From NCBI GenBank assembly GCA_951406725.2, contig OX597815.1:57412001-57476000 (forward strand): 64,000 nucleotides of DNA, in the 5' to 3' direction. Of this stretch, positions 645-59,589 are shown in pieces. Within the stretch, counting starts at the first letter, position 1. Each line of letters opens with the position of its first letter. The notes below the pieces were generated by a model. The model was not told the DNA's origin. It worked only from the letters and a program-made list of their open reading frames with translations, and searched no databases. A program made the translations under genes and the position numbers. This DNA comes from Octopus vulgaris (taxonomy: Eukaryota).

Positions 645-1752
645 CATAAGGTGGGTATAATGAAAACTCACATTATCACAGATATCAGCTAATGATGATG
701 AACAAGATAACATTGCTATTTTATCTTGCTGAATTTGAATATAGTTCAGTTACATGCAACTAAAAATGTTTCAGTTGAACTAGTTCATCTGTGTCAATAC
801 TTTCAGCTTGTCCATAATTGCTAAAGTATCTTGACTATGCTTTTAGATTGGCTGCTTTTATTCACTTAGTAAATTTCTATTAATCAAATGCTCATTGAGT
901 AATCATGGAATTTCCATTACTTGGCCACTGATGAACATAGTGAATGTCTAGTTGCTGGCCACAGCTAAAGATACAAACATACATACTTGTAATTTTGTGA
1001 ACGAGCACCCTCTTTTAATGAGAACTGAAGATGGAATGAACATCAACTGAACACAACTAACCTGACCCAAATATGAATACGACTTCACTACTGAACTGAT
1101 CATTTGAGGCAGCAAGCTCAAAGAGTAGTACCTCTGACATTAGAGTTGTTAGGTTTGAGCTTTGTAGTTACTGCAATGTAGAACTACTTTCTTTTAATTA
1201 GTATATCTGGTTATTATGTCTTTCTTGAGCAAAGCTCCATAAAACATTACTTATAATAATTGTTTAAATAAATAATATAAATTACTCACTGTTTTAAAGT
1301 GTCTTTTTTACCTTAGAATTAGCAAAATAATAAACTCCATTCAATATATCTCTGCATGTTTAAAATAATAAGATATAAAAATATACCTTTAGTTTGTATA
1401 TAAATATAAAACATTTCTTTAACAAATAGTGATATTAATGTGCTAATTTAATAATTCTATAAAATGACCAAATTAAAAACTACCTTCAGAATTGATACAG
1501 GCACTACTGATTTATGTAGGTTATTTCCAGAAAGTTTCTTTGATGACAGTGTTAATTGCAGGCAATACAAGTAAATTTAGAAGTCTATGTAATGTATACA
1601 TTGTCACTCATTACTAACAAATATTTTTATTTCCTTTATTTTCTCTTTTGAAGTCATGTATCATTGATCTCTTACATCTACTCCTGAAGTAACAGTGTAT
1701 TATTTATATTCTTTATAAAATCAGAAACAAAAATTTATATTTCTCATATGCA

Positions 1753-1900
1753 CAGGCATGGCTGTGCAGTAAGAAGCTTTATTCCCAATCACATGCTTTC
1801 AAGTTCAGTCCCACTGCATCGCACCTTGGGCAAGTGCCTTCTGCTATAGCCTCAGGCCAACCAAAACCTTGTGAGTGGATTTAGTTGACAGAAACTGAAA
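1753..1900 (+). mobile_element. tRNA-derived SINE head
   Basis: ggcatggctgtg...gttcagtcccactg...ccttgggcaagtg; same family as copies at 12517, 50445 and 58588. Confidence 0.75.
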
Positions 1901-2118
1901 CTTGGAAATGGATGCATGCTATTCAATTAAATAATAACATAAATAATATATATATGTATATATATAAATAGATGTGTGTATTTTACCCTTGTTAACAATT
2001 AACATGGAAAAAATAGATAAATAGTTACCAGGGTAGCAAAAAATCACAAAAGTAAAAAGTGTGCAACTTGTTTTTAAAGGTAGAAACTCCAGGTTTATGT
2101 GAAATATTTTGTATAATA

Positions 2119-2650
2119 TCATCATCATCATCATCATTATCATCATCATCATCATTTAGCGTCCGCTTTCCATGCTAGCATGGGTTGGACGGTTCAACTG
2201 GGGTCTGGGAAGCCAGAAGGCTGCATCAGGCCCAGTCTGATCTAGCAGAGTTTCTACGGCTGGATGCCCTTCCTAACGCCAACCACTCCGTGAGTGTAGT
2301 GGGTGCTTTTTACGTGCCACCTACACAGGTGCCAGACGGGGCTGGCAAAATGGCCACAGACGGATGGTGCTTTTTATGTGCCACTGGCACAGGGGCCAGG
2401 CAAGGCTGGAAACGGCCACGATCGGATGGTGCTTTTTACGTGCCACTGGCACGGGGGCCAGGCGAGGCTGGCAACAGCCACGAACGGATGGTGCTTTTTA
2501 CGTTCCACCGGCATGGAGGCCAGTCGGGGCAGAGCTGGCAACGGCCATGATCGGATGGTTCGCTTACTTGTCATCGGCACTGGTATCACAGCTGCAATTT
2601 CCATTGATGTTGATCGACTTGATTTTGGTTCTGCTTTCTGATATCTGATA
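2119..2650 (-). mobile_element. 5'-truncated RTE LINE, 3' UTR only, with ~60-bp tandem hairpin units and (ATG)n tail
   Basis: Reverse complement of the sequence following the RTE RT stop at 25134-25790; (cat)n tail at 2119-2155. Confidence 0.8.
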
Positions 2651-3341
2651 TGATTTTTTGATATATAAATAAATAAATGGAATTTAACGCAGGTGTTATT
2701 CAAATTCTTTTACTTCTGACACATGTTTCAAAGATATCACTGGTATTATTCCAAAGGAATAAAATGGTGTAAAACAATGTAATCTTCACTTGAGGGAAAT
2801 GAAAAAATGAAACTCGTCAATAAGACATTTTAACAGAATATGATGTATATGTATATTGATTAACTGAATGCTATTAAGTTTGTTTTAAAAAAACATTAGA
2901 GGATATAATGTCAAAGGTAGCCTATAGAAAGAGGTAGGGTAAAGGAAAAAAAACGCCAAATAAATGAGAAGTATATAATGATATGTATATTAAATAAAAC
3001 CCTAAAGTCTTGGAAAAAGATATATCTAGTGAATGTGAAATATAAGAAGAATATTAATGTTTAAATTATATATAATGATAGATATCACTTATATCAACTA
3101 AAGGTGTATTTCTGCCAATGTTTACATCAGTATGCACGCTCTATAACCATGTTTACAAGGGGATTTTTAGAAAAAAAGAGAAAAAATTGTTCATAAGGTA
3201 TCAAAACTGATGAAGGGTCATTCTTTGTGTTACTTGTCCTGTTTTCAATTTTTTTTCTCTCGTTGTTTGCTTATTTAACTTGCTTGTTTTCATACTTCTT
3301 GTTATTTACAGTTGGTGACATCTTGTATCCATATATGCATA

Positions 3342-3425
<84 letters not shown>

Positions 3426-3832
3426 GAGTTATATATCTATGTGTGTCTGTATTTGTCCCCCCCCCCCTCAATCACTGCTTGACAACCAGTATTGGTGTAT
3501 TTATGTCCCTATAATTAGTGGTTTGGCAAAAAAGACAAATAGAATAAGTATAAGGTTTAAAAAATAATTCCTGGAGACGATTTGTTTGACTAAAGTCTTT
3601 CAAGGTGGTGCTCCAACATGGCTGCAGTCAAATGACAGAAGCAAACATAAAAAAGAATGCCAATGAAGTGATTTCACATGCTATTTTGGGCATGTCTGCT
3701 GTAAGTTCACTGCCCTTGCTCTCAAACTACAGTCAATCATTTATTTGGAATACTTTTTTACACAAAATTACTATTGACTCTGTTTTTGCACTTGTTTAAA
3801 ATAATCTTTGATTGAGATTTTATGTTTTACAG

Positions 3833-4009
3833 CAACCTTGGTATGACCAACACCCATATCAAATAATGTTTTTAGTTGGTCTAGGAAATGTACCACCAAT
3901 TCCAGAAAACTTAAGTCGAGAAGGGAAAGAGTTCTTAAAACACTGCTTTGAGATGGAACCTAGTCGACGCCCTTGTGCCATTGACCTACTAAACCATCCT
4001 TTTCCAAAG
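3833..4009 (+). CDS. MAP3K4: MAP3K4/MEKK4-like kinase, penultimate coding exon (kinase subdomains X-XI)
   Basis: Phase-0 exon after acceptor ttttacag. QPWYDQHPYQIMFLVGLGNVPPIPENLSREGKEFLKHCFEMEPSRRPCAIDLLNHPFPK matches the MEKK4 C-terminus (recalled human RPWHEYEHNFQIMYKVGMGHKPPIPERLSPEGKDFL...LLDHSFVK). Ends at AAG|GCAAGT. Confidence 0.85.
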
Positions 4010-5053
4010 GCAAGTATTTATTTTTATTTTTATCTTTAAATAGAGTAAAATTCACAGCCTAGTTTCAGAATTTATTTATTATGCCATTGGGAAAGACATA
4101 CATAACTTTTTTCCCTTCCCTCAAAGTTAATTAGGTTAGATAGGTTTAGATCTTACATACGAAATATTGCTGTAATTTGCAGGCATAAATTATGAAGTGA
4201 TACTTTATTAATTAACTCTATCAGTATGTTTGGAATATTTATTACATTTCTTATTACTGAATATTTGTCAGAATTATTTTGAAAATTAAGTAGTTTGTCT
4301 TTGACTCAAGATACTCTTGAAATAAAAAAATTATGGTGAGAACCATTAATCATTGATCATTACTAATCACAAAAATGCTGCTGCTTTTACATGTTTGTTG
4401 CACGTCTTTTCGGGTGATTTAAATTTGAACAATTTGAGGACCGAGGCTGTCCAAGTATTTCAGTTTTCTTCAAATTGTCATTAGAGATTCAGAAGTCTTC
4501 TTCCTTTGCCCCCATAAATGATTAGATTAAAAAATACATAACTAGTATCAACAGGCTTGGGTGTTCAATTTTTTTTTACCAAAATCTGCTGTTAAAAATA
4601 CCTATCCTAAAATCTCACCTAAATATTAAAATTTTCTGAAGCTATTTTGCTACTTCAGGAGAAATGAAGTTATTATTGTAAATATTGTTTTTTGTCATCA
4701 TCGTTGTTGCCGCCATCGCCACTGTCGTTCGGTGTCAGAGGAGAATTTAATGTTAAAATACATTTCATTAAATAGTTTGGTTTTTGAGACCCTAGATTCT
4801 TAGGATGCACTTTTGAAGTTCAATTATCTCCTATTTAACATAGAATGTTATTTAAAAAATAATTACTACTGTTTTATATATATTTTATGTCATAATTTTC
4901 CTTCTCACAAACAGCAGTCACATTTCCATTTCATTTATATCTTTGAATAATTATGCATTGGTATGCTTATATGTAACCAAAATCTCCCTTTAGTTAGTTA
5001 TGGAAATTTTAATTATTCATAATTTCAAGAACAAAATAAAAACCTATGGAATA

Positions 5054-5124
5054 TGCTGAAATCCAGGATTGAACCAGGGACTTTTAGAATTTTAGTCTTA
5101 GACTCTCTCATTGAGCTATGTCAT
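5054..5124 (-). pseudogene. tRNA-Phe(GAA) pseudogene, intronic, antisense to MAP3K4
   Basis: Minus strand gacatagctcaatgagagagtctaagactaaaattctaaaagtccctggttcaatcctggatttcagca is colinear with eukaryotic tRNA-Phe; anticodon and acceptor stem mutated. Confidence 0.75.
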
Positions 5125-5984
5125 GTATTTCTAAATGGATTCATGACTTGAAGAAATATATATTTACTGTCATTACTATGAGAATATTTTACCCATGCAA
5201 ACCAAACGAGTAGCTTTAAATACTGGGTAGAAAATATAAGCCTGTTATGTTTTTATACAATTTTACATCTTTCTTTTCTGTTTTAAATTTGTCAGAAATA
5301 ATAGAACATATATATATGTATACTATACCTGAAACTACAGGCTTGAGGAGCAAACTCCTTAACTATGTCTGCCTGTGCAAGCACACAAACACAAACACAG
5401 ATATAGTGTGTGTGAGACTGTACATGTATATACATCATGAATAACGTTTGCGTTAATAGCATTTAGTTATTGAGTTACATGTTCAGTGAGAATATTTGAA
5501 CTAGATTGATATCTCTTCATGCCTTTTGAATGAGAAGCAAATGTAGTTTTGTTATCTTACCGTTTTTACCAATATATATATATATATATATATATATACG
5601 AGCAAAATGCCCCCCATCCAATGGATGGTGCTGAGTTGTCAAACATTTAAACCAAAATCCACATCTCCTCAATGGCCAACATTCCTCTCGCAGGCACGAC
5701 ATCATTGCATGTGTCTTCCATCTGAAGCTTCAAAAAATGATGGATTTGCTCTGGCAAATCATTGCAATTACCACTAATGTCATCAGTCAAACTTTTTAAG
5801 ATAGGGAAGTGAGAGGATGTTGTCTCAGTTTTAGACGCAGCAAATGATTAAACTACGTTAAATTTACAAATTACAATTTTCTCAAGAAAGCCAAGAGAAA
5901 AAAATGTTTTATTTTGACACATTCTACCAGTATACGAAGTTTAAAATTGTTTAGTTAACTAGAAATTGTGTTGAAAACTGCCAT

Positions 5985-6685
5985 TCAAAAGGAAAAGATC
6001 CAGAAAATGCAACAAGCATTTGCATAGATTGAAAAAGGTCTTTCTATGTTTGAGGATATAGATCCAAATGCTCAATGCTTTTCCAAGATTATGGGGGCTT
6101 GTCATGAAGCTTTTGCTCCTTATAATGTCATTCTTGAGGAAAAGAAGATGACAGTTCAAGAAACTCTCAACCGGTTTTTTTAAGTGCATTGAACAACAAG
6201 AACAGCCAGAGAACAGCTGTTGATGTTGACTGTCTACAGCCATTTACATCTGTGATATAAACCACCAAATTGGATGTACGTATTGGTAAATTTAAAATAA
6301 TTAAGTTTTTTTTTACTATTGCAAAATAATAATTATTGAATTTGTTTTTTAAGCTTAAAAAAGGCTTTTATTTTACCATGTCTTATTGCAAACTGCATTC
6401 ATAAATAAAGTGTCTGCAATGTACAGTAAACACCACCAAATTGTATTTGTAAATGTAGATTACATTTTTTTTTACTGTAGTGTATTAAAAAATAAAAATT
6501 ATTTGTTTGTAAGCTTAAAATAGGTTTTTATTAACCATGTATTATTATTCATACATAAAGTACAGAACTGGAAATGATTATTATTGGTTTAGCCTAGAGA
6601 CAAGTTAATTCGACTTGAGTCGTTTTTTTACTTAAGCCGTGTCTCCTTGAAATAATTAACAATGTAGGGTGAGGTATATGCATTT
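5985..6685 (+). mobile_element. Tigger/pogo DNA transposon 3' remnant
   Basis: + translation near 6000-6180 (AFA*IEKGLSMFEDIDPNAQCFSKIMGACHEAFAPYNVILEEKKMTVQETLNRFF) is typical of Tigger transposase C-termini; Tigger-like terminal segment near 6610-6685. Confidence 0.6.
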
Positions 6686-6841
6686 ATGTATGTATGTATA
6701 TATATATAGATGTACTTGCATAGCGAGTGACTTGATCTGAGATCATGTGCTGGAACAAAAACAATTGCAGCGTGGAAGGTGTTTATAAACCATTTAAAAA
6801 ACACACAAAACCGTTAGATTCACTTCAACATTTAAATTTAA

Positions 6842-6895
6842 TTTGTCAAAATTTAATTTTCGTCGCTCTGAGACTGTGATCTGTTCACTGATAAA
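6842..6895 (-). ncRNA. Hammerhead-ribozyme-like motif with variant G3:C8 core (partly decayed)
   Basis: Minus: TTTATCA-GTGAACA-GATCAC-loop-GCGAC-GAAAAT-TAA-ATTT-TGACAAA; stems I, II and III are recognisable, with mismatches in stems I and II. Confidence 0.45.
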
Positions 6896-7520
6896 GCTTC
6901 GTGCTGCATCTCATATATATATACATACATACATACATACATAAATGCATATATATGTATGTGTGTGTGTGTATGAATATCTGTGTGTGTGTGTAAATAC
7001 ATGACAAAGCTATATATAAACACACTCTCAAATTGCATTTGTATCACAGCTATTATTCTCACTTCACCTCTCTTTACCACTTCCTCTCACTCATTGCTAT
7101 TACTTTCTCTCACTCCTGCCTACTGCATGATTTTGGACAAAAAAAATATATATATATTTATATAATACAAATAAGAAAACGGAGAAACAATCTAGTTGGT
7201 TCATCAGCTTTCGGATATTAGAATGTTGACTTATTTATTTATTTAACAAAAACAAGAACCTTAATAGCGTACATATACACATTATAATTCAATACTTTTA
7301 AGATAAGAATACAATTATAAAAATCATAATATAAATTATTGAAAGCATTAAATCACTCCTTACAGCTGTTTCAGCATATAAACACACACACAAATATATG
7401 AAAATACTACACTCATTATTATATTAGATTAGTTTAGTGTGTGTCTTTATGTTTGTGTTTGTCCCACTTCACCATCTGACAACCAGTGTTGGTTTATTTA
7501 CATCCCTTTAAGTACTCGAT

Positions 7521-7565
<45 letters not shown>

Positions 7566-8171
7566 TTATGAAAATAAACAGCAGAAAACTCCTCACAAAA
7601 TGGGTTTTCTGCTGCTCTAGATAATGTAAAATGTAGGTGTGTATTACTGGGTCACAGCTATTGAATATTATCCCTCTAACACCTAGATACTCTTCATATC
7701 ATAGTGCTGAATATAATATTTGAACTCATGATTTTTGTAGTCCAGTAATATAACCACTCTACAGAGTGCATTTTATATCAAATAAGATGACATGTAAACA
7801 CCAACTACAGGAGCTAAAACAGCATCTAACTTGTAAACAGTATCTGCAGGAGCTGAAAAAAGATGAGTCCATTGTCTTATTAAAAAAGATTGTGTCTTTA
7901 CTGTGGTGCATGCTGAAAACCTCCTGTTACTTTGTTGACATAGAACTACAGTAAAAGTATATCAAAGAAAAATTTTAAATTAGTAATTATTCTGAGTCTC
8001 TTAATCAAGAAGCTGTATTGCCTCTTGATCAAGTGTCATCAAGAGGCCTACTTAAATCTTTATGAAAAGGGGCATTGTGCTGATATGTTTATTCGGTTAG
8101 AAACTTACTTTTAAAAGAAACCTGATAATTTTCATACAATTTCAATTTATGTTTTTTTTCTTCATTTACAG

Positions 8172-8198
8172 GTTTCTGATGAAGACATGAACCTCTGA
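8172..8198 (+). CDS. MAP3K4: MAP3K4 terminal coding exon (VSDEDMNL*)
   Basis: Strong acceptor ttttttttcttcatttacag; a phase-0 join gives HPFPK|VSDEDMNL*, paralleling recalled human HSFVK|VCTDEE*; candidate AATAAA at 8612. Confidence 0.75.
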   Translation, partial: VSDEDMNL

Positions 8199-8969
8199 GC
8201 GCATTACTACTAAAACCTTTTTGAGAGACAGTGGATATGAGAAAAAGTAACAGATCCTTGATAATAATTTTTATGATTGATAGGAAAGACAAATGAAAAT
8301 TGGGAGAGAATCATGTTTTTGTAATGTCCATTTAGTGACATCTAAATTAAAACTTGTTCCAATTACTTCTTATATTTAAAAATTTCTTAGGAATTTTTAG
8401 ATAATATTTGGAATCTGCTCCACAGTGATATGTTGGTTAAATGCAACATGTATTTGGCATATGTCTTCATGGAAAAAATGCTTTTCAAAATATTCCTTTT
8501 CATTTCAAAACATGACTAAGATACTTCTCTGTTTTAGAGAAATGTAATATAAATTAACTTTCTTCTTTTCTTTTTTTTTTTTTTTTGATGGGGTGAGAAA
8601 TTTATTATTATAATAAATTTAAATATATAAAATGAAAAAAAATTACCACCACATTTCTTTTCTAGTGAACTAACTTATGATCCTAAGAGAGATGACCTGG
8701 ACAAATGAATCAGAATTGTCAAAAAAACAAAGAAAGGACTTTGTAATTGAATCTTTACCAGAATCTAAAAATATAGGCAAATACACAGGCATACAGTTCT
8801 AAATGATTTTAGGTTTACTATTTATATATAGGTGCAGGTAAGAAGCTTGCTTCTCAACCACATGGTTATGAGTTCAGTCCCATTGCATGGCACTTTGGAC
8901 AAGTGTTTTCTGTTGTCTCAGGCCAACAAAAGCCTTGTGAGTGTATTTGGCAGACAGAAACTGAAAGCC

Positions 8970-9660
8970 CATGCCAAAACAGATAACAGAACATGGCATA
9001 GCCTTCTGGCTTGCCGGCTCTTTTCAAAGCATCCGCCCCATGCAAGTATGGAAAACAGTTGTTAAATGTTGTTGTTGTTGATGATGATAATGATCAACTT
9101 TATCTGAGTATGCTAATGTCCTATCTGATCATTTTAATTATTGGTAACTTCCTCTTTCCCACACGTATTCCATACAATGGCTCCAATAAATACAAGGAAT
9201 AAAATGGATAAGGAGAATCATACATTAAAGTCATAGATAATGGTCTCACAGTATTGGGTGATAATTACCTAAGTACAGTATGGGCAGGTAATATGTACAT
9301 ATAATTTCATAAAGATATAGGATTATAACCATGTTAAAATGGTTAGCCAACATACAATGGAAAATATAGGAATCCAAGGTATTCATCTTATAGATCAGGC
9401 TTGCTTGGCACAATTAGAAGTAGCACAACAGTAGCTAAGCAAATAATGAACAATAAAGGTGAGGTTTGTGGGAAGGAGGAAGTTACCAATAATTAAAATG
9501 ATCAGATAGGACATTAGCATACTCAGATAGAGTTGATCATTATCATCATCAACAACAACAACATTTAACAACTGTTTTTCATACTTGCATGTGGCGGATG
9601 CTTTGACAAGAGCTGGCAAACCAGAAGGCTATGCCATGTTCTGTTATCTGTTTTGGCATG
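8970..9660. repeat. Inverted repeat, ~194-bp arms (8970-9163 / 9467-9660)
   Basis: Arms are near-identical reverse complements; mirrored ORFs 9011+ and 9395- give nearly the same peptide. Confidence 0.9.
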
Positions 9661-16760: not shown

Positions 16761-18660
16761 ATGGTTCCCTTTCATTATAACTTTATTTCAGGTGCCTTGG
16801 TACCGGGCATCCTCAGGAGGCCAAGAGTAGCAAGGGCACTTTTGATTTGCTGAGCATAATAAATTATCACCACATTTATTCCATTTTAGATGGAAAGTGC
16901 TTTCTATAGTATATGGACTGTACTCATCAAGGTTATCTTTTATAGTTTATGGAGATTGGAGTTACCAGGGAGTTGCTTAATATACTTCTCATCTCACTTC
17001 TTTATCATTCCCAACACACCAATTACTACTGGTATTATCATAGTACTAAGCTTCAACATTTTTGTGATTTCAATTTGCAGATCTTTATAGTGAGAAAGTA
17101 TTACGTAATCCTTTCTTGAAACATTTTGATCTTGTGAGGCAGATACATCTATTAACAGACAAGTTCCTCTGTTGTAGTCCTTGATCACAATATCTGGTCA
17201 ATTTGAGTCAATGTTTTTTGTCTGTTTGTATTGGGAATTTCCAAAGGATGGTGACGCCCTCACCATTTACTACATCCTCTGGATGGTGCCAGTACCACTT
17301 ATCATGGGATTTAATTTTGTAATATTTACAAGCATTCCAGTGGATATACTGCCCTAGCCTGTCATGTCTTATGAGGTACTCCTTTTCAGCCAGAAACAAC
17401 ATGATCAATTGTCTCTGTGAATTTTCTGCATGAGGTGTCAGATCTATCTTTAAGGACGTTTGCATGGTAGTTCCTTGTAGGTAAGCTCTGATCTTGCACA
17501 GCAATAACAAAACCTTCTGTCTCCCCTTTCAGACCTGTCCTTTGTAGTCATTGGTGTGTTAATTTTTATCAATATCTGGCTTGGACAGGTGGTTGAAGTA
17601 TTTTCCATGCAGGAGTTTACCTTTCCAGTTGTCTTTGGTATTATTTGTGCAAGCCTTCTTTGCTTTTTGTTTGATGTTTTTTTTGCATCAGTGATAGGTT
17701 TGCCATTATTTGGATCTCTTTGGTCTTTCTGATTGTTAATTTCTAAATCAGGAGAAGCAATGGTAGTTCTGTCAATATTTGTGTGTCTTTGGTTTTTCTT
17801 ATTGTTAACTTGTAGGCCAAGGGACTTTTTAAATTTCTGACTAAGCTTCATGACTGAAGCTTGCTTGGAATCTTCATGCTCTGATATAGGTATGGAATTC
17901 AGACTTGATAAATATGCAAAGGCTTATGAGGTGCAGTTTGTAAGAGACCATCACTTGTTGTATTAAGGTACGTTTCAAGGCCTATTATTGCTGATTTGAA
18001 GGATTGTTCAAGCTGTATCAGGCCTCTTCCACTTATATTACTTGGGGGATAAATCCTGTCTACATCTGATTTTGGATGGTGCATTCAGTATCTTGCAAAA
18101 GATTTTATGGATCTTTCCATCCATATTCTGCATGTCACTGAGACTCCACTAAATGATACTGAAGCTATATGTGGTTACTGGTATGGCCAAAGAATTGATT
18201 GCATTAATTCTGTTAGCAGCATTTAATTCTGAGTTTAAAACCATTCTTACCCTTCAGTAACATTCCTTGCAGATTTTCTCTTTCATTTTAGAGTGCTGGA
18301 TACTATCAGCTTCATTGGTTCCCAGATATTTGTATACTTCGGATGGGTCTAGGTTTCGAATAACTGTGGTAGTATCAAGTTCTATGTTTTCTGCCTTTAT
18401 GAACTTCCCTGCCTTGAAAGTAGCCTTTGCATATTTATCAAGTCTGAATTCCATACCTATATCAGAGCTGAATTCTTTGACAATACTCAGGAGCTCTTCT
18501 AATTCTTTATCATTTTTGGCAAACAGTTTTAGATCATCTAATTTTCTGGTCAAAGATCTTATACTCTCTCTTAGCATTATTCACTTGCATGGATAAAGGA
18601 AACAGAGTGAGGCAGAATAGTAATGCTGATAATGAGTCACCTTGAAAGAAATCTAGATGG
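16760..18660 (-). mobile_element. R4/Dong-clade LINE remnant (RT plus restriction-like endonuclease)
   Basis: DDLKLFAKN, YKYLG, HHPKSDVDRIY, RHDRLGQYIHW, CLLIDVS...YKDLQIEI...PVVIGVLG motifs. Confidence 0.8.
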
Positions 18661-21379: not shown

Positions 21380-21860
21380 TTGATTTTGTGACCAAAATTA
21401 ACAATATTTCTAAGCAACAAAATAGTCCCAGAAACTGTTTTTTGTTCACCATGGATATTTCTTCACTATATCATAATATTGACCATGATGATGGGGTGGA
21501 AGCATGTGGAAAATGGAAGTTTGTGTTACAAAGTAACTCAATGAAGTTGGGACAAAAATTTTGCCACTAGACAAGGGGTTGTGCCATGGCTGTGAATTTG
21601 AGATTGATACTGAAGACATTTGAATGCCTGCATAGTCATGAACCAATACTCCGCTTATGGTTCATTGATGATACCTTTTTTTTTCTGAAAAGGATCACAA
21701 GATAACTTCTTGCATTTCTTGGAATGCTATGCTAAAAACTAAGGTTTTAAGTCCAACATAAAATTTATGTTGAATTTTTCAAAAACTAGCATTAAGTTTT
21801 GGGATTCAAAAGTTTTCTGAAGGCAGAATAGTAAATAATTTTGCAAGCCCATGTCATCCA
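21380..21860 (+). mobile_element. Penelope-like RT remnant
   Basis: LFTMDISSLYHNIDHDDGVEAC...FVLQSN, then a WFIDD-like motif at ~21658. Confidence 0.6.
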
Positions 21861-22671: not shown

Positions 22672-25600
22672 AGGGCTATTAGACAAAAGAAACAGGCTTG
22701 GAAAGATTGGAAGAACGGTGGTAGCAGGGAAGTGTATCAGACTGCCAGAAGGGAAGCTAGGAGACAGGTCTATCTAGCCAGAGGGGAAGCAGATAAGAAA
22801 AAATTTGCCAATGTTCTGCGCCGTGAGGATGAAAGACTTGAGGTATTTCGTGTTGCAAGACAGTGTGTGAGAGAGAATCGTGACGTGGTAGGAGAGAAAT
22901 GTGTTCGCAAGGATGACGGTTCACTTGCGCTAAATGAGGATGCAAAGAGAGAGGCTTGGAGACGCCACTATGAAAGGTTGCTGAATAAAGAAAATGAATG
23001 GGATAAAGAGAGTCTGCCGAATGTTGACCCAACAGAGGGACCAGCAATCCGAGTTAACAGTTCATCATCATCATCATCATCATCATTTAACGTCCGCTTT
23101 CCATGCTAGCATGGGTTGGACGGTTCAACTGGTGTCTGGGGAGCCCGAAGGCTGCACCAGGCCAGTCAGATCTGGCAGTGTTTCTACAGCTGGATGCCCT
23201 TCGAGAGTGTAGTGGGTGATTTTATGTGCCACCGACACAAGTGCCAGACGAGGCTGGCGAACGGCCATGCTCGGATGGTGTTTTTATGTGCCACTGACAC
23301 AGGTGCCAGACAAGGCTGGCAGACGACCACGCTCGGATGGTGTTTTTATGTGCCACCAACACAGGTGCCAGACGAGGCTGGCGAACGGCCACGCTCGGAT
23401 GGTGTTTTTATGTGCCACCGACACAGGTGCCAGACAAGGCTAGCAGACGACCACGCTCGGATGGTGTTTTTTATGTGCCACCGACAATTGCCTTAGTAGT
23501 TAAGGCAATTACAAGCATGAAAACAGGGAAAGCCCCAGGCCCATCAGGAATTACTGCAGAGATGCTCAAAATATCTGGTAGTGTCGGCTATAGCCTAGTC
23601 ACTCGTATAGTTAACCAGGTGAAACACGAAGGAGTCATACCCAATGACTGGTGTAGCAGCATAATAGTCAACTGCTACAAAGGTAAAGGTGACGCCCTAG
23701 ATACAAATAACTACAGGGGTATCAAGCTGCTGGATCAGGTAATGAAGGTTACGGAGAAGGTTATAGCCCAACTAATTAGAGAGAGAGTTAGCTTAGATGA
23801 GATGGAGTTTGGGTTTGTGCCAGGGAAAAGTACTACTGATGCTATATTCCTGGTAAGACAGCTGCAGGAGAAATACCTAGCCAAAGATAAGCCCCTGTAC
23901 CTGGTTTTTGTTGACATGGAGAAAGCCTTTGACAGGGTCCCCCGATCCCTTATCTGGTGGTCAATGAGGAAACTAGGGATAGATGAATGCTTAGTGAGAG
24001 CTGTGTGAGCCATGTACAGAGACGCTGCTAGTAAGGTGAGGGTTGGCAACGAGTACAGTGAAGAATTCCGGGTAGAGTTTGGGGTCCACCAAGGTTCAGT
24101 CCTCAGTTCACTCCTATTTATCATAGTCCTCCAGGCAATAGTAGAGGAATTCAAGAGAGGATGCCCCTGGGAGCTCCTCTATGCTGATGACCTTGCTCTA
24201 ATTGCTGAGTCACTATCAGATCTGGAGGAGAAGTTTCAGTTGTGGAAACAAGGATTAGAATTGAAGGGCCTTAGAATCAACCTAGCCAAAACCAAAGTCC
24301 TAATAAGTAGGAAGGTGGACCAATCACAAACGACTTCAGGTAGATGGCCCTGCTCGATCTGTAAAAAAGGTGTAGGTAGAAACTCTATAAGGTACACCAA
24401 GTGTAAGCTATGGACACACAAGAGGTGCAGCAATGTCAAAGGAAGGCTAACTAGGAAAATAGTTTTTGCCTGTGGCAGATGCTCAGGAGCAATAAACACT
24501 GGAAATGTGCAGAGACCAACTTCTACCATGTTCCAGGGAGACAAACTAGAAGTAGTTGATAGCTTCCGCTACCTAGGTGACCAAGTCAGTAGTGGGGGTG
24601 GGTGTGCTGAAAGTGTAACTGCTAGAGTAAGAATAGCCTGGGCAAAGTTTAGAGAGCTCTTACCCCTGCTGGTGACAAAAGGCCTCTCACTCAGAGTAAA
24701 AGGCAGACTGTATGATGCATGTGTACGTACAGCCATGCTACATGGTAGTGAAACATGGGCCGTGACTGCTGAGGATATGCGTAAGCTTGCAAGAAATGAA
24801 GCCAGTATGCTCCGATGGATGTGTAATGTCAGTGTTCATAATCGACAGAGTGTAAGTACCTTGAGAGAAAAGTTGAACCTAAGAAGCATCAGCTGTGGTG
24901 TGCAAGAGAGACGTCTGCACTGGTATGGTCATGTGACGAGAATGGCTGAAGATAGTTGTGTGCAAAAGTGCTACACCCTAGCAGTTGAGGGAACCTGTGG
25001 AAGAGGTAGACCCAGGAAAACCTGGGACGAGGTGGTGAAGCACAACCTTCGAACTTTAGGTCTCACCAAGGAAATGACTAGAGACCGAGGCCTATGGAAT
25101 TATGCTGTGCGTGAGAAGACTCGGCAAGACTAGTGAGGCCATAACCCGTGGCCTCTACCTGGTATGTAGCCAGTCGACTTATACATACCTTTCCTTCTTG
25201 GGACACAAAACTCTACTTGTGAAGACCCGTTGAGGCAAGTGAAAATCAAACAATCAAAATCAAAATCAAATCAGATATCAGAAAGCAGAACCAAAATCGG
25301 AGTCGATCAACATCAACGGAAATTGCGGCTGTGATACCAGTGCCGCTGTGATACCAAGCGAACCATCCGATTGTGGCCATTGCCAGTGCCGCCCCGACTG
25401 GCCTCCGTGCCGGTGGCACATAAAAGCTCCATCCGTTCGTGGCCGTTGCCAGCCTCGCCTGGCCCCCGTGCCGGTGGCATGTAAAAAACATATCCGTTCG
25501 TGGCCGTTGCCAGCGCCGCCCCGACTGGCCTCTGTGCCGGTGGCATGTAAAAGCACCATCCGTTCGTGTCTGTTGCCAGCCTCGCCTGGCCCCCGTGCCA

Positions 25601-25792
25601 GTGGCACGTAAAAGCACCATCCGCTCGTGGCCGTTTGCCAGCACCGTCTGGCACCTGTGTGGGTGGCACGTAAAAAGCACCCACTACACTCGTGGAGTGG
25701 TTGGCGTTAGGAAGGGCATCCAGTCGTAGAAACACTGCCAGATCCATGCTAGCATGGAAAACGGACGCTAAATGATGATGATGATGATGATG
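22672..25792 (+). mobile_element. RTE-clade LINE, 5'-truncated, RT nearly intact
   Basis: GKAPGPSG, NYRGIKLL, FVDMEKAFD, GVHQGSVLS, YADD, FRYLG; one in-frame TGA at 24006-24008; interrupted at 23062-23487; 3' UTR array and (ATG)n tail. Confidence 0.93.
23062..23487 (-). mobile_element. RTE 3'-UTR-type element inserted antisense into the RTE ORF
   Basis: (cat)n tail at 23062; the ORF resumes after it (GPAIRVNSS ... LVVKAITSMKTGKAPG). Confidence 0.8.
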
Positions 25793-26269
25793 TACATGTA
25801 ATATGTACACATATATATTCACATATATACATGCATACATAGATACACCCACCCACCCACCCACACACATACATAGGTGCAGGTGTGGCTGTGTGGTAAC
25901 AAACTTCGTTCCAAAACACATGGTCCTGGGTTCAGTCCCACTGTGTGGTGACTTGGCATGTGTCTTCTGCTAATAGCCTCAGACCAACCAAAGACTTGTC
26001 AGTGGATTTTGTAGACAGAAACTGAAAGAAATCAATCGTATATATATATATGTATGTATATATTTAAGTGTATGTGTGTGACTTTGTGTCTGTGTTTCAC
26101 CCTCATCACTGCTTCACAACTGCTGTTCGTTTATTTACATCCCCATAACTTACTGGTTTCACAAGAAGAAACTAATAGAATAAGTACCAGGTTTACCAAC
26201 ATAAAAAAAGCACTACGCTGTGTCTCATATTTTTGTTTGCCCATTCAGTTGTATCTATCAATTTATCTT

Positions 26270-36999: not shown

Positions 37000-38676
37000 C
37001 TGTCTACTACTGCAAAGCAGCACATAGATGATGTTCAAGAAGTAAACAAAATTTGAACAACAATGGTCGTGAACCCCCTCCATTTGATAGATCAGTACCT
37101 CCAATGCCTAGATTGGTCATCACTCGGGATGAAGTCGACCGAGTTATTTAAGGCCTCAATGTCAACAAGGGTCATAGCCCTGACAGCATACACCTACACG
37201 TTATCAAAGTGTTGGCTCCGGTCATCTGCGAACCTTTAACACTTCTATTCAATATGTCATTGGCGACGGGTGTTATACCTGCGGACTGGAGAACAGTGAT
37301 AATCTGCCCAATTTTCAAGAAAGGGAGCCATGAAGACCTGCTTAACTACCGACCGGTTTCCCTTACTTCAATAATCAGCAAGATGTTCGAAACCATCCTT
37401 AAGAAAAGTATGTTGCTCCACCTCCAAAACACAGCCTCTATCTCTGATTCCCAACACGGCTTCGTGCCGAAGAGATCATGCTTGACCAACTTTCTGGTAA
37501 TGGAAGAATTGGTGACGCGTATCCTGGATGATGGTGATGCTGTTGACATCGTTTTATTGGACTTTGCCAAAGCTTTTGACTTGGTTAACCACCGCCTATT
37601 ACTTGTCAAGCTTCAAGCATATAGTTTCCATCCGGATATTGTATGATGGGTTGGTGCCTTCCTCTCAGATCGCTCCTTCCAAGTCCAAGTTAATGGTTCG
37701 CTGTCCGACGTCTCCAGTGCGAGCAGTGGCGTGCCTCAAGGTTCAGTGCTTGGGCCCTTATTGTTTTTAGTCTTCATATATGACTTGCCCGACGACCACA
37801 CGCAACACACCCTTCTATTTGCCGATGATGTCAAACTGGTCGCTCCTCGTGGTGATATAGATGATCTTCGTCGATGCCTCCACCAAGTTTGGAGATGGTC
37901 TAACGAATGGGACCTGTGTCTGAACGTGTCAAAGTGCTGTCATCTGCCTGTTGGCTCTTCTGCAACTCAACTTGATTTCGAGCCGGGTTGTCTGCTGCTG
38001 GAGAGGACCGACCAGGTAAAGGACCTGGGTATCTTGGTGGATTCTTCCTTTTCACCTTCGGCCCAGTGCGTCCATGCTGCCAACAAAGCACACGGAGTTC
38101 TGTTTTTGATTCGACGGTCATTCGGAATGCTCACAGCAGCCATATTCCTACTGTTCTATGTCACGCTGGTGAGACCCAAGCCTCTTCTTATCTCCTCAAA
38201 GACATACATCATTTCAAAAGAGTCTAGAAGTTGGCTACCCGCATGGTTCTTGGTCTCAAGCATTTGTCTTATGAAGAAAGGCTGAAGACGCTCAACCTTT
38301 ATTCTCTAGAAAAACGCCGCCACCATGGTGATCTCATTCTTGCTCACAACATCATAAGCGGAAAGTGTAACCTCTCGAAAGAGCTGTTCTTCACTCCTGC
38401 TCCAGAGCGTTGGCTGCGGGGTCACTCTGAAAAGCTCTATCTGCAACGATTTCATCTCAATCGAAGGAGAGGGGCTTTCTCCGTCCGGGTTGTGGATCCA
38501 TGGAATAAGCTGCCGGACGAGATAGTGAAGATGCCGACGACCGCTCGTTTCAAAGTCTCTCTTGACCAGAAATGGTCTGAACTCTTTGCATGAACACCTT
38601 CCCTGTACATAACTCTATGTCACCCTACATGGCCTTGCTTTTTGCTTTTTGAGCCAAAAAATTAACTTAACTTAAC
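37000..38676 (+). mobile_element. CR1-clade LINE, 5'-truncated
   Basis: NYRPVSLTS, LDFAKAFD, PQGSVLGPLLF, FADD, LSYEERLKTLNLYSLEKRR; (aactt)n tail. Confidence 0.9.
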
Positions 38677-39394
38677 AATGAAAGTGTCATTATGGGTTTG
38701 AAGACAGAGAAAAAGATAGCTGATTTATGAAAGACCTTCAGCTATGTGATGATGCTTATTACAAATCATTACATATCTCACCAACAAAAAGTGAAAAAGG
38801 AGATAGAAGTGATGTTTAGAGATAGCAAAAAGAGGACACTCACTTGCAAACTGATCAATCTCAAGCAGGAGCAAAATGCTGTCAGCAAAAAACTCTGACA
38901 TTAGAAGAGAATAACCAAGAGAAAAACAATAAACAAAAAATTTAACTGGAACCAGTGAACAGTATACAGAGACACAAGAAGAGAAGCAGTGAATGTCATA
39001 GAAGCTTTTTTCATGAAAAGACAGACATGTTCAGGTGGAAAAAAGAGATGGAGTTTAACTGAGATGCTCTTTGCCTGGAAGAAATTCAAAGAAGTTATTG
39101 TCCTTGCATTACTCCTAAGACATACAACATTAATGGTGATACCCTTGCAACTACCATCCAGAAACTCCAGGATGGAAAAACACCTGGAAGAGACTTGATT
39201 GTTGGCACAAGAATTTAACCTTATCAACTTGTACCAGCAAGCTTTCAATGGGAATAGTAGCTCCCGATGCAGTGAGTGGTGAACACAGGAGGAGGCAAGA
39301 TGAATTGTGAATACCTATTGAAGGGGAAGGTGAAGGAAGTTCGTGTGGATCAGAGAGGATGGCAACAAGATATATATGTTTAAAAAAAAAAAGA

Positions 39395-39867: not shown

Positions 39868-40063
39868 TGAAGTATACCATATTGAAAGCTTGCTGGTACA
39901 AGTTGATAAGGTACCATTGAAAGCTTGCTGGTACAAGTTGATAAGGTTAAATTCTTGTGCCAACAATCAAGTCTCTTCCAGGTGTTTTTCCATCCTGGAG
40001 TTTCTGGATGGTAGTTGCAAGGGTATCACCATCAATGTTGTATGTCTTGAAGTATACCATATT
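39868..40063 (-). repeat. Templated inverted insertion of 39117-39251, flanked by a 16-bp direct repeat
   Basis: tgaagtataccatatt at 39868-39883 and 40048-40063; the insert is the reverse complement of 39117-39251. Confidence 0.9.
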
Positions 40064-43677: not shown

Positions 43678-44714
43678 GTGAGAATGGATGAAGATAGGTG
43701 TGTGAAAAAGTGCCACACCCTGGCAGTTGAGGGGGACCTGTGGAAGAGGTAGACCCAGGAAAACCTGGGTCGAGGTGGTGAAGCACGACCTTCAAACTCT
43801 AGGTCTCACCAAGGAAATGACCAGAGACCGAGACCTATGGAAGTATGCTGTGCGTGAGAAGACCCGGCAAGACCAGTGAAAACAATCAAAATCAAATCAT
43901 ATATCAGAAAGCAGGGGTTAAGTGACCCATCCGATCGTGTCCGCTGTCAGCCTTGTCTGGCACCCGTGCCGGTGATACGTAAAAGCACCATTCGCTCGTG
44001 GCCGTTTGCAAGCTCTGCCTGGCCCCCGTGTCGGTGGCACATAAAAGCACCATCCGTTCGTGTTCGTTGCCAGCCTCGCCTGGCCCCGTGCTGGTGACAA
44101 GTAAAAGCACCGTCCGTTTGTGGCCATTTGCCAGCTCTGTCTGGCCCCGTGTTGGTGGCACGTAAAAGCACCATCCGTTCGTGTCCGGTGCCAGCCTCGG
44201 CTGGCCCCCGTGCCGGTGACACGTAAAAGCACCGTCCGTTGGTGCCGGTGACACGTAAAAGCACCGTCCGTTCGTGCCGGTGATACGTAAAAGCACCGTC
44301 CGTTCGTGGCCGTTTGCCAGCTCTGTCTGGCAACCGTGTCGGTGGCACGTAAAAGCACCATCCGTTCGCGTCCGTTGCCAGCCTTGGCTGGCCCCCGTGC
44401 CGGTGACACGTAAAAGCACCGTCCGTTCGTGGCCGTTTGCCAGCATCGCCTGGCCCCGTGCCGGTGACACGTAAAAGCACCATCTGTTCGTGGTCGTTCG
44501 CCAGCTCTGTCTGGCACCTGTGCAGGTGGCACGTAAAAAACACCCACTACACTCGCGGAGTGGTTGGCGTTAGGAAGGGCATCCAGCCATAGAAACACTG
44601 CCAGATCTGACTGGGCCTGACGAAGCCTTCCAGCTTCACAGACCCCAGTTGACCCGTCCAACCCATGCTAGCATGGAAAGCGGACGCTAAATGATGATGA
44701 TGATGATGATGATG
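43678..44714 (+). mobile_element. 5'-truncated RTE LINE with expanded 3' UTR array (~11 units)
   Basis: RT end colinear with 24933-25137, then tandem units and (ATG)n. Confidence 0.88.
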
Positions 44715-45050
44715 AAGGGAATTTTAATACATGTGCATATAAATATATATATACATATATGCAATATATATATATATATATATATAATATACATTCATAT
44801 ATATATATGCATATATATACATATATGCATATATATATACAATATATATATATGCACATTTATTTGTATATATGTGTGCGCGTGTGTGTACATATGGTGT
44901 GTTGTGGATTTATGGAAAGAAATCACATAAAACTCAACAATTTTGTTACAAATGGAGAAGAGATAATGTTAAAATATGTAAGAAAATGTTAATATATGTG
45001 CATATATATACATTATATATATATATATATATATAGTTATATATATATAT

Positions 45051-52935: not shown

Positions 52936-53715
52936 TTAGTTTGATTTCATTTTGTTTTCTAAGGTAGGATTTATAATTACGAGTTCAGAACCTTCGATTT
53001 TGACCTCTTCGTAAAGCCAGGGTCGTTCACAGCGACATTCCGTACCGCATTTCTCCGAGCCACATTTCAGGCAAGGGAAGTGACAGCCGGGACAATCCAT
53101 ATCCAAACAGTCACACATATCTATACCCGTAGATATCAAACATCCGGACTCATCGTACATTTGCCACTCATTGCACTTCTTCCGCTTCCTTTTCTTTTTT
53201 TTAGTCGCTTTGAAGCGAGCAGAGGATTTCATGGTGGGAATAGCTTTAGTTCTTGTCACAGCTTTAGAAGACGTTGTCACTGAACGACCATTTCTCCCAC
53301 CCGATCTAGTAGTTACCGCCAGAGCGTTCTCGTTTTTCATAGTTTCATTTGCCCTCGTTACCGAACTACCATCAGTACTGTTCTTATCGAGGGTTTTCTC
53401 GTCAGAAGAACAAGTTTTATTGTTTATCGAAGGAGGTCGTCGTTTTTTCCGGTCATATTTTTCTGTTAGATTAACATCCTTCACATCTGTCGTCTTGAAC
53501 CCTTCATTTACCTCTTTCTTCCCGCCATCAACACCTTCATTTATGTTGGTGTCTTGTCGATACTGGCGCCGTGAAGCCCTAGTAACCATCATTTTCCTTC
53601 GGGAATTATCACCTCCCCCATCACCACTTTCATCATCATCATCATCACCACCAGACTCACTTTGTAATTCTTTGCCGTCTTTTTTTTCCGAACTCGTATC
53701 TGCCGCTTTCATCAT
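52936..53715 (-). CDS. ARL14EP: ARL14 effector protein-like (C11orf46/ARF7EP), 259 aa, single coding exon
   Basis: C-terminal YDESG...DMCDCLDMDCPGCHFPCLKCGSEKCGTECRCERPWLYEEVKIEG is the Cys-rich ARF7EP_C domain. In-frame TAATAA lies just upstream of the ATG, and a splice acceptor ttcttttctacag lies 24 nt upstream. Confidence 0.9.
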   Translation of the reverse strand: MMKAADTSSEKKDGKELQSESGGDDDDDESGDGGGDNSRRKMMVTRASRRQYRQDTNINEGVDGGKKEVNEGFKTTDVKDVNLTEKYDRKKRRPPSINNKTCSSDEKTLDKNSTDGSSVTRANETMKNENALAVTTRSGGRNGRSVTTSSKAVTRTKAIPTMKSSARFKATKKKKRKRKKCNEWQMYDESGCLISTGIDMCDCLDMDCPGCHFPCLKCGSEKCGTECRCERPWLYEEVKIEGSELVIINPTLENKMKSN

Positions 53716-54807
53716 CTTTCTTGCAAACTGTTTTTATTACTGTAGAAAAGAAGTTGTGCCTTTGACATTTGTCACTCTACTAAAACAGTTAGTGTAATTA
53801 CCATTAATTAACATTAAACAGTTTGTTTTCAAGATATTTCCAACTTCAGGCAGCAAAACAGAGAAGAAATTATTGGATGTATAATGATATTCTAAGTTAT
53901 CGATGTCCTTTAATTATTGTCAGTTTTTTATTGTTGCTCTTCCCAAAAGTTAAATCACGATTGTTTCTTGCTGGTTTTGTTTTGTGTGTATATATATATC
54001 GTTTAAATATTTGTATATACTGACAATAAATTGAATCGAGGTGAACGGCAAAGTAACTTTGAATGTAGGTTGATGAGAAACAAGGAAGAAAACTAAATAG
54101 TTTTTTTTTTCAACTTGGCAAGTTGTAAGTTGACATGTGGAACGTGGAAGTTAAAATAATGACTTCATCATCAAAGAAAAAATTATAAGCAACTCACAAC
54201 TGCTATTCTGTAATGAAATGATTAAAGCGTCCCATTCAGTACTAAAATATATGTATATACCGATATCTCAATATATTTCTAATAAATCTAAATCTAACGA
54301 TAAATCGGATATGTAGTGGTAAATGGGTTCCAACCAAGATTTATCTTTCTTGTATAAATGTTTATGTAACTCTCCTCAGCATGGCGAAGTGAGGTAAATT
54401 TACTTCAAACACAACTAGGTCTGGCGATTATGGCTGTTTATTATTGTGTATTTCCAGACACTCCTTTAATAAATCCTGTTTGTTGATGCTTGAGATATAA
54501 AGGATAGAAGTGAGGTCAACTCGTCAGTTTGATAAAGCGGCACTTCTCCAATTAAATGACATGCAATGAATAAAAGAGGAATCTATTTTTAAATATTTTA
54601 TCCTAAAAAATAAAACAGAAACGGGAAGCGGGCACTCGTAATATATAAACAAACATGTCGGACGATACAAGGGGCGATAATTTACTTCTACAATAAGGTA
54701 TTATAAATGATGCGAGAGGCCCGACAATATCGTCTGCGAATTGTAAGAAGACCGTTTCACAATCATTAATAAATCTCTGAACGAGATATAAATAGTAACC
54801 GCTCAAC

Positions 54808-57960: not shown

Positions 57961-58495
57961 ATGTTTGACTTTTGCTTTACATTTGCACAAGCTGGCTCCA
58001 AGTCTCACCCATAGAACTCAAGAGACAACAAGCTGGAAGTTCATGTTGGTGTTATGCCTAGGGTGCCATATATTTGGTTTTGTACTTAGTGTTGTACTAG
58101 TGAATGCCTAAAGAAACCATACGAAAATTATGTTTGTTTTAAAACTTAGATTACAAAGAAAGTATTTTGCGTAGGATATGAGCAGTTCCCATGAGCACTA
58201 TCTTTTGAATTTCTGCCATTTTAGGGTTTCCTGGTATCTGAGTTAGGTAGCAATCAGCCCCTTTTGCTATCATTCCCAGGGCACCTATGACAACAGGTAT
58301 TGTTTTAGTCTTCAGGTTCCACATTTTGCTGATTTCTATTTCCAGATCTTTATATTCGCTCAGTTTCTGGTAGGTCTTGACAGATACGTTTATATCGATT
58401 GGGACAGTCATATCAATGAGGAAGCATGTTTTTTGTCTGAAGTCTTTTACTATGATGTCTGGCCTATTTGCGTCTATCTTTGTGTCAGTTTGTCA
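57960..58495 (-). mobile_element. R4/Dong LINE 3' end (REL domain)
   Basis: RPDIIVKD...LIDMTVPIDINVSVK...KLSEYKDLEIEI...PVVIGALG...QKIVLMGTAHILRK. Confidence 0.82.
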
Positions 58496-59580: not shown

Positions 59581-59589
59581 CTCTTAGAT

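What the first reader, a model, noticed from the sequence alone, without database searches (positions are those of the whole stretch)
6842..6895. G3:C8 variant hammerhead candidate
Minus strand TTTATCA GTGAACA GATCAC..GCGAC GAAAAT TAA ATTT TGACAAA. The topology is type-I hammerhead, but the core has the reciprocal swap of the C3:G8 pair. That needs two transversions and is hard to explain by neutral decay. Stem mismatches look like transition decay of an older copy. It lies in a ~200-bp TA-flanked repeat (6715-6910).
Basis: partly seen in the sequence, partly recalled or inferred. Interest (0 to 1): 0.7.

Follow-up and report, generated by a model that had tools for sequence, protein, structure and literature searches.

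The report
Swapped-core hammerhead in octopus repeat
This is a worn copy of a 200-base octopus repeat whose sister copies spell out a small hammerhead-type RNA with two paired core letters swapped (G3:C8), a form found only as a lab-made mutant in the papers searched; it likely derives from a Penelope-type retroelement, and self-cutting is predicted, not shown.

Summary
The motif is at 6842-6895 (minus strand) as described. Alone it is weak: it does not fold as a hammerhead, Rfam misses it, and a loose pattern finds a swapped core in 6 of 60 shuffled windows. The family evidence is much stronger. 6708-6912 is a high-copy octopus repeat (934-8,904 contigs laid per run; four runs, three species labels). 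That matches the published consensus of minimal Penelope-element hammerheads except for G3:C8 and a G at the extra position; a strict pattern gave 1 hit in 580 Mb of simulated DNA. C8 is read in the main family in all four runs; G3 only in the window-like copies (about 1% of summed depth). The predicted stem I repair was not seen. No cleavage, no expression and no parent element are shown, and element class is inferred. G3:C8 appears in my searches only as a partly active lab mutant. Verdict: likely a new natural hammerhead variant carried by a whole repeat family; this copy is probably dead.

The parts
6708..6912 (-). One copy of a high-copy octopus interspersed repeat (about 205 nt; family end lies about 4-5 nt left of 6708)
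   Evidence: 8,904, 6,805, 5,672 and 934 contigs laid from runs X1, X3, X10, X9; loose ends before 6708 in 152, 137, 97 and 19 contigs end in a shared TACGG then unrelated AT-rich DNA; 6912 recurs as an end in joints of X1, X10, X3; octopus.
6842..6895 (-). Type I minimal hammerhead-like motif with G3:C8
   Evidence: Sequence; family letters; folding
6889..6895 (-). Helix I, 5' arm: 3 bp next to the core (6889-6891), A.C mismatch at 6892, 3 more A-U pairs
   Evidence: Sequence; mismatch not repaired among laid contigs; 6846 T>C in 23-45% of depth turns an A-U into G.U
6882..6888 (-). First core strand G3 U4 G5 A6 A7 C8 A9 (swapped 3:8 pair)
   Evidence: No C>G change class in any of 4 runs; G>C at 6883 excluded for X1, X10, X9; C8 also in the loose-end consensus of all 4 runs
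6881..6881 (-). Extra unpaired nucleotide (G) between A9 and G10.1
   Evidence: Family form; extra nucleotide is a hallmark in PMC4209133, where it is G in 1 of 56 listed motifs
6862..6880 (-). Stem-loop II: 5 bp with G10.1-C11.1 and 9-nt loop in the family; two pairs broken in this copy
   Evidence: 6877 T>C in 67-95% and 6880 T>C in 45-73% of depth; pair probabilities >= 0.99 in the majority form, 0.00 in the window copy
6858..6861 (-). Second core strand G12 A13 A14 A15.1
   Evidence: Sequence; same in loose-end consensus
6849..6858 (-). Helix III segment and U16.1-U17; palindromic AAUAUU in most sister copies, 3 nt longer and not palindromic here; predicted cut 6849|6848
   Evidence: Loose ends behind 6846 and 6852 and the 3-nt gap at 6853; palindrome test
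6842..6848 (-). Helix I, 3' arm, followed by AU-rich sequence
   Evidence: Sequence
6708..6758 (-). Terminal 51 nt missing from a class of copies that end at 6759 (possible Penelope-type tail; inferred)
   Evidence: Loose ends before 6759 in 41 (X1) and 33 (X3) contigs, long and AT-rich
6675..6707 (.). Left arm of a palindromic (TA)n-centred microsatellite, the target site
   Evidence: Inverted repeat of 6913-6953, identical but for two ATGT units
6913..6953 (.). Right arm of the palindromic microsatellite

Best explanation
This is a decayed copy of a high-copy octopus repeat whose sister copies carry a minimal type I hammerhead fold with a G3:C8 core pair, likely the terminal repeat or a non-autonomous derivative of a Penelope-like retroelement, whose RNA is predicted to cut itself weakly and only as a dimer or with protein help. 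Shown: repeat family, repaired stem II, palindromic helix III, C8 in the main family, G3 in window-like copies, AT-rich or (TA)n flanks. Inferred: two motifs on one transcript (or two RNAs) pair through AAUAUU to build helix III; G3 pairs with C8 and places the 2'-OH of residue 8 as general acid; the cut falls after U17 (6849|6848); the RT/endonuclease of an unidentified Penelope-like element copies the RNA into (TA)n sites. After insertion this copy lost two stem II pairs by C>T decay and carries a longer, non-palindromic helix III, so it is probably inactive.
For: Held-out test passed: the two stem II mismatches are both repaired and helix III turns palindromic in sister copies from four runs and three species labels; hammerhead stems go from +5.8 to -6.2 kcal/mol and stem II pairs to p >= 0.99. 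The majority form matches the published >80% consensus of minimal Penelope hammerheads in U-rich flank, 3-bp helix I, extra nucleotide, G10.1-C11.1, GAAA, palindrome, NUH and AU-rich flank. Strict descriptor: 1 hit in 580 Mb. Two neutral hits landing on 3 and 8 and giving G and C: about 5e-5 to 2e-4 (rough model). C3G/G8C partly restores cleavage, also in a Penelope hammerhead that needs protein (PMC11167929; PMC8495972). For Penelope type: AT-rich/(TA)n flanks, a second 3' end about 50 nt inside, opposite-strand joints of which 6797|6912 must be head to head, all features described for these elements (PMC8557442); Penelope-like repeats cover 6.83% of the O. vulgaris genome (PMC13282606 supplement).
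Against: No cleavage test. G3 is seen only where summed depth is about 1% of the peak (47,374 against 3,963,596 in X1), so the main family probably differs from the window somewhere in 6886-6912 and its N3 was not displayed; one unlisted G>C change in X3 could sit at 6883. The stem I mismatch is not repaired. The majority 51-mer is no more stable than shuffles (109 of 500 as good), the dimeric hammerhead (-13.0) is less stable than two monomers (-16.4) and than another duplex (-22.0), and G3 pairs with U17 at p = 0.49, a possible trap. The extra nucleotide is G where the consensus has H. The strict descriptor was written after seeing the family letters. No RT or endonuclease ORF is linked; both ends share GAGATG, as short terminal inverted repeats would. 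Inverted joints are rare (depth 24-204) and not specific.
Confidence: 0.5

Rival explanations
1. Hammerhead by descent and fold, but not a working enzyme: the source element kept the shape (for example as a protein-binding or dimerising site) while cutting was dispensable.
For: Hammerhead mutants did not affect insertion by a Penelope protein in vitro and no RNA ends were found at the cut site (PMC11167929); minimal hammerheads cut very poorly even with the normal core (PMC4209133); G3.U17 trap and weak dimer.
Against: A purely dispensable core would not be expected to keep a Watson-Crick 3:8 pair through two transversions while the other core letters stay canonical.
Confidence: 0.25
2. A chance look-alike: a GC-rich hairpin inside a small non-autonomous DNA transposon (TA target, short GAGATG terminal inverted repeats), or a remnant of coding sequence.
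For: Both ends share GAGATG (6 bp, 8 bp with one wobble); TA flanks; loose descriptor hits in 6 of 60 shuffles; Rfam silent; CpG decay alone predicts C at 6875 and 6877.
Against: The repair at 6880 is not at a CpG and the palindrome needs a 3-nt gap; strict descriptor 1 hit in 580 Mb; the joint at 6912 lacks the extra letters of the left end, so the ends are not mirror images there; no protein relative of three reading frames, though the queries were only 38-47 aa.
Confidence: 0.15
3. The G3:C8 pair belongs only to the window-like subfamily; the main family has another letter at position 3 or another 5' part, so the swap is a side branch rather than the state of the source element.
For: Depth over 6879-6910 is 1-2% of that over 6711-6850.
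Against: The main family's loose-end consensus reads C8 in all four runs, and only G pairs with it; the aligner's loss of short contigs near the 3-nt gap and four substitutions can lower depth (inference).
Confidence: 0.1

Closest known systems
Minimal type I hammerheads (min-HHR) of Penelope-like elements (Cervera and de la Pena 2014, PMC4209133)
   Same: Type I topology, 3-bp helix I with U-rich and AU-rich flanks, extra nucleotide before G10.1-C11.1, 5-bp helix II, GAAA, palindromic helix III, NUH site, many dispersed single copies.
   Different: G3:C8 (of 56 listed motifs 53 have C3:G8, 2 U3:A8, 1 U3.G8, none G3:C8); extra nucleotide G (1 of 56); no Penelope ORF shown next to it; no cephalopod in the list.
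Natural U3:A8 core variants (Perreault et al. 2011, PMC3088659; Cercyon elements, PMC4209133)
   Same: Watson-Crick covariation of the 3:8 pair in nature.
   Different: U3:A8 needs two transitions and has a wobble intermediate; G3:C8 needs two transversions through a mismatch.
Engineered C3G/G8C double mutant (PMC11167929; review PMC8495972)
   Same: Same pair; reported as partly active, also in a Penelope hammerhead.
   Different: Lab-made; here it is the state of many genomic copies.
Non-LTR retrozymes (PMC7229834; bioRxiv 10.64898/2026.07.22.740005)
   Same: Non-coding unit of 200-300 nt, low GC, one type I hammerhead, monomer copies, proposed Penelope origin.
   Different: Retrozymes are defined by tandem arrays and mostly canonical hammerheads; here one dispersed copy, a minimal motif, and only single contigs hint at head-to-tail joins.

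Membership tests
Hammerhead ribozyme (class) | Core C3 U4 G5 A6 N7 G8 A9 / G12 A13 A14 A15.1 / U16.1 H17 | tested here: not met
   All met except C3 and G8, which are G and C
Hammerhead ribozyme (class) | Watson-Crick pair possible between positions 3 and 8 | tested here: met
   G3:C8 in the window and laid contigs; N3 of the main family not displayed
Hammerhead ribozyme (class) | Helices I, II, III closing on the core | tested here: met
   Family-majority form only: helix II 5 bp p >= 0.99, helix I inner 3 bp p 0.65-0.73, helix III 2 bp or dimeric; not met by the window copy
Hammerhead ribozyme (class) | Score against Rfam hammerhead models | tested here: not met
   No hammerhead family at E <= 10 for 6715-6910; only the window copy was scanned
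Hammerhead ribozyme (class) | Site-specific self-cleavage after N17 | not testable with these tools
   Needs an assay; contigs cannot show RNA ends
Minimal Penelope-type hammerhead | One extra nucleotide between A9 and G10.1, conserved G10.1-C11.1 | tested here: met
   against PMC4209133; extra letter is G, consensus H
Minimal Penelope-type hammerhead | Palindromic 15.2-16.2 and loop 3 | tested here: met
   AAUAUU in loose-end consensus of four runs; window copy and some others are 3 nt longer
Minimal Penelope-type hammerhead | Compensatory changes in helices across copies | tested here: inconclusive
   Only per-position tables: one compatible change (A-U to G.U at 6846); other stem II variants are G>A/C>T, mostly at CpG, 5-17%; no alignment of whole copies
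Penelope-like element | Hammerhead-bearing terminal repeat joined to an RT plus GIY-YIG ORF | tested here: inconclusive
   None adjacent in the window; no genome held; no protein relative
Penelope-like element | Tandem/inverted insertions, tail at one end, AT-rich or (TA)n target | tested here: inconclusive
   Second 3' end at 6759, 8 of 15 listed joints are opposite-strand, AT-rich flanks; all low in number and not specific
Non-LTR retrozyme | Tandem arrays of units with a hammerhead in each; circular RNA | tested here: inconclusive
   Single copy here; one contig joins end-like sequence back to 6710 (table 5c); circular RNA not testable
Non-autonomous TIR DNA transposon (MITE) | Terminal inverted repeats and TA duplication | tested here: inconclusive
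   6-bp GAGATG at both ends, TA flanks that cannot be told from the microsatellite; right end of the family seen in few contigs

The most novel reading that the evidence does not exclude
A very abundant octopus retroelement family was amplified with a working natural G3:C8 hammerhead, the reversed core pair so far reported only as a laboratory rescue mutant; because genome searches demand CUGANGA (or UUGANAA), a whole class of such ribozymes has been invisible, and this family alone would add thousands of copies.
Probability: 0.35. Interest if true: 0.75.

Novelty: new variant of a known kind. Interest (0 to 1): 0.58.

Why it matters
The 3:8 pair positions the general acid of the hammerhead; nature was known to use C3:G8 and U3:A8, and G3:C8 appears in the papers I could search only as a partly active mutant. 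A family-wide natural G3:C8 gives a direct test of whether the pair or the letters are selected, and of how a core crosses a mismatch intermediate. It would widen the search pattern for ribozymes, could help classify an abundant unassigned octopus repeat, and offers many naturally decayed copies to ask whether Penelope hammerheads are selected for cutting or for shape.

Tried and rejected
No whole genome is held, so full copies could not be aligned. No second copy in the window. Exact 24-nt pattern: 0 matches in viral, metagenome and genome collections; 18-nt pattern: 3 bacterial loci, chance; degenerate core pattern in metagenomes: 120 loci of about 140, none related to the repeat, 4 of 120 with loose stems. 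Coding remnant: no relative for the 38-aa minus frame, the 47-aa plus frame (near lengths only) or the 40-aa plus frame (longer only). No RNA holder listed; X9 is only guessed to be RNA, so its 934 contigs are not used for expression. A plus-strand hammerhead at 6888-6912 was rejected (C3.A8, no GAAA). The 33-41 nt inverted flanks were rejected as the element's own terminal repeats, since other copies have unrelated flanks. Naiad: no family marker in the supplement of PMC8557442 (line breaks can hide short matches), and Naiads lack canonical hammerheads. Helitron/Helentron: no fitting end structure by eye (features recalled). Short stretches of the repeat are in no paper's full text nor in two supplements. 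Earlier findings by sequence, place and octopus words: none.

Full report
What is there. The window is octopus DNA: the ORF at 52936-53733 is 96% identical over its length to a protein named from Octopus bimaculoides; no whole genome is held. Numbered as a type I hammerhead: G3 6888, C8 6883, A9 6882, G12-A15.1 6861-6858, U16.1 6850, U17 6849, predicted cut 6849|6848.

The copy alone is weak. It does not fold as a hammerhead (z = +0.83; 159 of 200 shuffles fold as well). No hammerhead family is among the 132 Rfam matches of the window at E <= 5 or the single match of 6715-6910 at E <= 10. A loose descriptor finds it, but also finds a G3:C8 hit in 6 of 60 shuffled windows, and 0.62 hits per shuffle over all four Watson-Crick 3:8 pairs. 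No second copy lies in the window.

The family. The stretch is held by 24 listed runs of 13 studies and five organism labels. I laid 4 of the 24 (X1 and X9 organism A, X3 B, X10 D) at 80% likeness: 8,904 of 40.6 million, 934 of 6.6 million, 6,805 of 36.2 million and 5,672 of 30.6 million records were laid, mostly 90-99% alike. It is a high-copy repeat; contig depth gives no copy number. On the left, 152, 137, 97 and 19 contigs run on before 6708 with a shared TACGG and then unrelated AT-rich DNA, so the family ends about 4-5 nt beyond the window's copy. A second class of copies ends at 6759 (41 and 33 contigs in X1, X3). Position 6912 recurs as the other end in a joint seen in X1 and X10 and one in X3. 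The flanks 6675-6707 and 6913-6953 are an inverted repeat, identical but for two ATGT units; since other copies have other flanks, I read this as a palindromic (TA)n target, not as part of the element (inference).

The held-out test. Among contigs covering the motif, 6877 reads C in 82, 77, 67 and 95% of depth (X1, X3, X10, X9), 6880 reads C in 50, 65, 45 and 73%, 6875 reads C in 87, 88, 72 and 96%, and 6868 reads T in 81, 74, 58 and 100%. Loose ends behind 6852 (210, 150, 113, 34 contigs) give the same 30-letter consensus in all four runs, with these letters and a helix III 3 nt shorter than the window's; among contigs aligned through, the 3-nt gap is in 27, 15, 39 and 100% of depth, so the longer form is not unique to this copy. 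Two of the changes undo CpG decay (6875, 6877); 6880 is not at a CpG. Applying these letters in a script, stems I and II go from +5.8 to -6.2 kcal/mol and helix II pairs reach p >= 0.99. The other prediction failed: no T>C at 6892 reached 5% in any run (the T>C counts of table 1 are all accounted for by listed rows), so the A.C mismatch in stem I stays.

Is the swap family-wide? Table 1 lists no C>G class in any run, so 6888 stays G3 wherever contigs cover it. G>C at 6883 is excluded for X1, X10 and X9; X3 has one G>C change not among the displayed rows, and it could lie there. The loose-end consensus reads C8 in all four runs, though only the longer ends reach that letter (median 17-18 of 30; it is letter 28). 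The caveat is depth: 47,374 at 6887-6894 against 3,963,596 at 6823-6830 in X1. The main family probably differs from the window somewhere in 6886-6912 or lacks that part, and its position 3 was not displayed. G3 is thus shown for window-like copies and inferred, by pairing with C8, for the rest.

Chance. A strict descriptor built from the published features (any Watson-Crick 3:8 pair, extra nucleotide, 5-bp helix II closed by G-C, GAAA, palindrome, UH, 3-bp helix I) is met by the majority form, not by the window copy, and gave 1 hit in 580 Mb of order-2 Markov sequence. Two neutral hits among 33 constrained positions fall on 3 and 8 and give G and C with probability 5e-5 to 2e-4 (rough model), which favours selection for the pair.

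Against. The majority 51-mer is not more stable than shuffles (109 of 500 as good); the dimeric hammerhead (-13.0 kcal/mol) lies above two monomers (-16.4) and another duplex (-22.0); G3 pairs with U17 at p = 0.49. A trap of this kind is proposed for C3-G17, and a G3-C8 variant is said to be more active with G17 than with C17 (PMC3884650, data not shown there; passages). Activity is therefore predicted to be low. No cleavage or expression evidence was obtained.

Element class. For a Penelope-like origin: the type of hammerhead; AT-rich and (TA)n flanks; two 3' ends about 50 nt apart; 8 of the 15 listed joints join opposite strands, and 6797|6912 must be head to head. Inverted 5'-truncated neighbours, a 30-40 bp tail at one end and (TA)n bias are described for these elements (PMC8557442, passages), and they cover 6.83% of the O. 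vulgaris genome (PMC13282606, part 1 of 3 and supplement search). Against: no linked ORF (21 of the 73 long ORFs were scanned with Pfam), no protein relative of three short frames, and GAGATG at both ends, which a small TIR transposon would also show. I put Penelope-type at about 0.6.

Comparison with what is known. The >80% consensus of minimal Penelope hammerheads (PMC4209133; main text parts 1-2 of 4, supplement file 2 parts 1-2 of 3, file 1 not searchable) is matched except for the swap and G at the extra position. Of its 56 listed motifs, by my count 53 have C3:G8, 2 U3:A8, 1 U3.G8 and none G3:C8; these cut poorly and as dimers. Natural U3:A8 is also in PMC3088659 (passages). C3G/G8C partly rescues cleavage in a Penelope hammerhead that needs protein, and cleavage was not needed for insertion in vitro (PMC11167929, passages and section 3 part 1; review PMC8495972, one passage). 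Retrozymes are of like size but defined by tandem arrays (PMC7229834, passages; bioRxiv 10.64898/2026.07.22.740005, parts 1-2 of 5). Also seen as passages: PMC6765202, PMC6155905, PMC6257768 (one reference); PMC8967140 as listing and supplement search. Searches found no report of a natural G3:C8 hammerhead or of this repeat. Lunse et al. 2017 (title seen in a reference list) and Przybilski and Hammann 2007 (recalled) are not held, figures are not held, bioRxiv supplements are closed, and repeat libraries were not searchable; any of these could hold a natural G3:C8 or a name for the repeat.

Elsewhere in nature. Three unchecked notes of this scan report G3:C8 candidates in a phage and near Penelope-like RTs of other genomes; they are leads, not support. 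Inconclusive.

Verdict. Observation confirmed; interpretation partly supported. It works like, and most likely descends from, a minimal dimer-type hammerhead, but fails the letter test for membership at positions 3 and 8 and has not been shown to cut. New variant of a known kind; interest 0.58; the bold reading (a working natural G3:C8 ribozyme carried by an abundant retroelement family) has probability 0.35 and would deserve 0.75.

Noticed in passing
window 6675-6707 and 6913-6953: The flanks form a near-perfect inverted duplication including the non-repetitive GCATTT; either a palindromic microsatellite that was the target, or an inverted target duplication made on insertion. Other (TA)n tracts of the window have partly mirrored arms (up to 21 of 25 matches by a crude measure).
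   Followed up: partly
window about 21430-21700, + strand: Broken RT fragment with motifs resembling Penelope-type (Neptune-like) RTs (MDISSLYHNI, GCAMA, WFIDD; resemblance recalled, not scanned); 15 kb from the repeat and not linked to it.
   Followed up: partly
window 52936-53733, - strand: Long uninterrupted ORF with an ARF7/ARL14 effector C-terminal domain (PF14949), 96% identical to an O. bimaculoides protein.
   Followed up: partly
window 8970-9163 / 9467-9660; 39117-39251 / 39914-40048; 17873-17924 / 18422-18472: Three long inverted repeats (194 nt 96%, 135 nt 99%, 52 nt 98%) without an obvious target duplication.
   Followed up: no
window 6893-6911: Small hairpin at the 5' end of the repeat (minus strand) just before helix I; if the two family ends were joined head to tail, GAGATG and its complement would close a UACG loop on the plus strand.
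   Followed up: no
L207, minus strand: Viral contig with a type I hammerhead-like motif with G3:C8 and stems of 5, 5 and 9 pairs (A17); MFE forms helix III and part of helix II but not the full fold.
   Followed up: partly
window 23298-25133, 37152-38593, 55930-56511, 59548-60054, 61439-62695, 17208-18580, 58151-58492: Several decayed non-LTR retrotransposon ORFs (RT and AP-endonuclease domains), plus recurring repeats with a ~61-63 nt tandem unit (2130-2660, 23060-23490, 25260-25850, 43920-44780).
   Followed up: no
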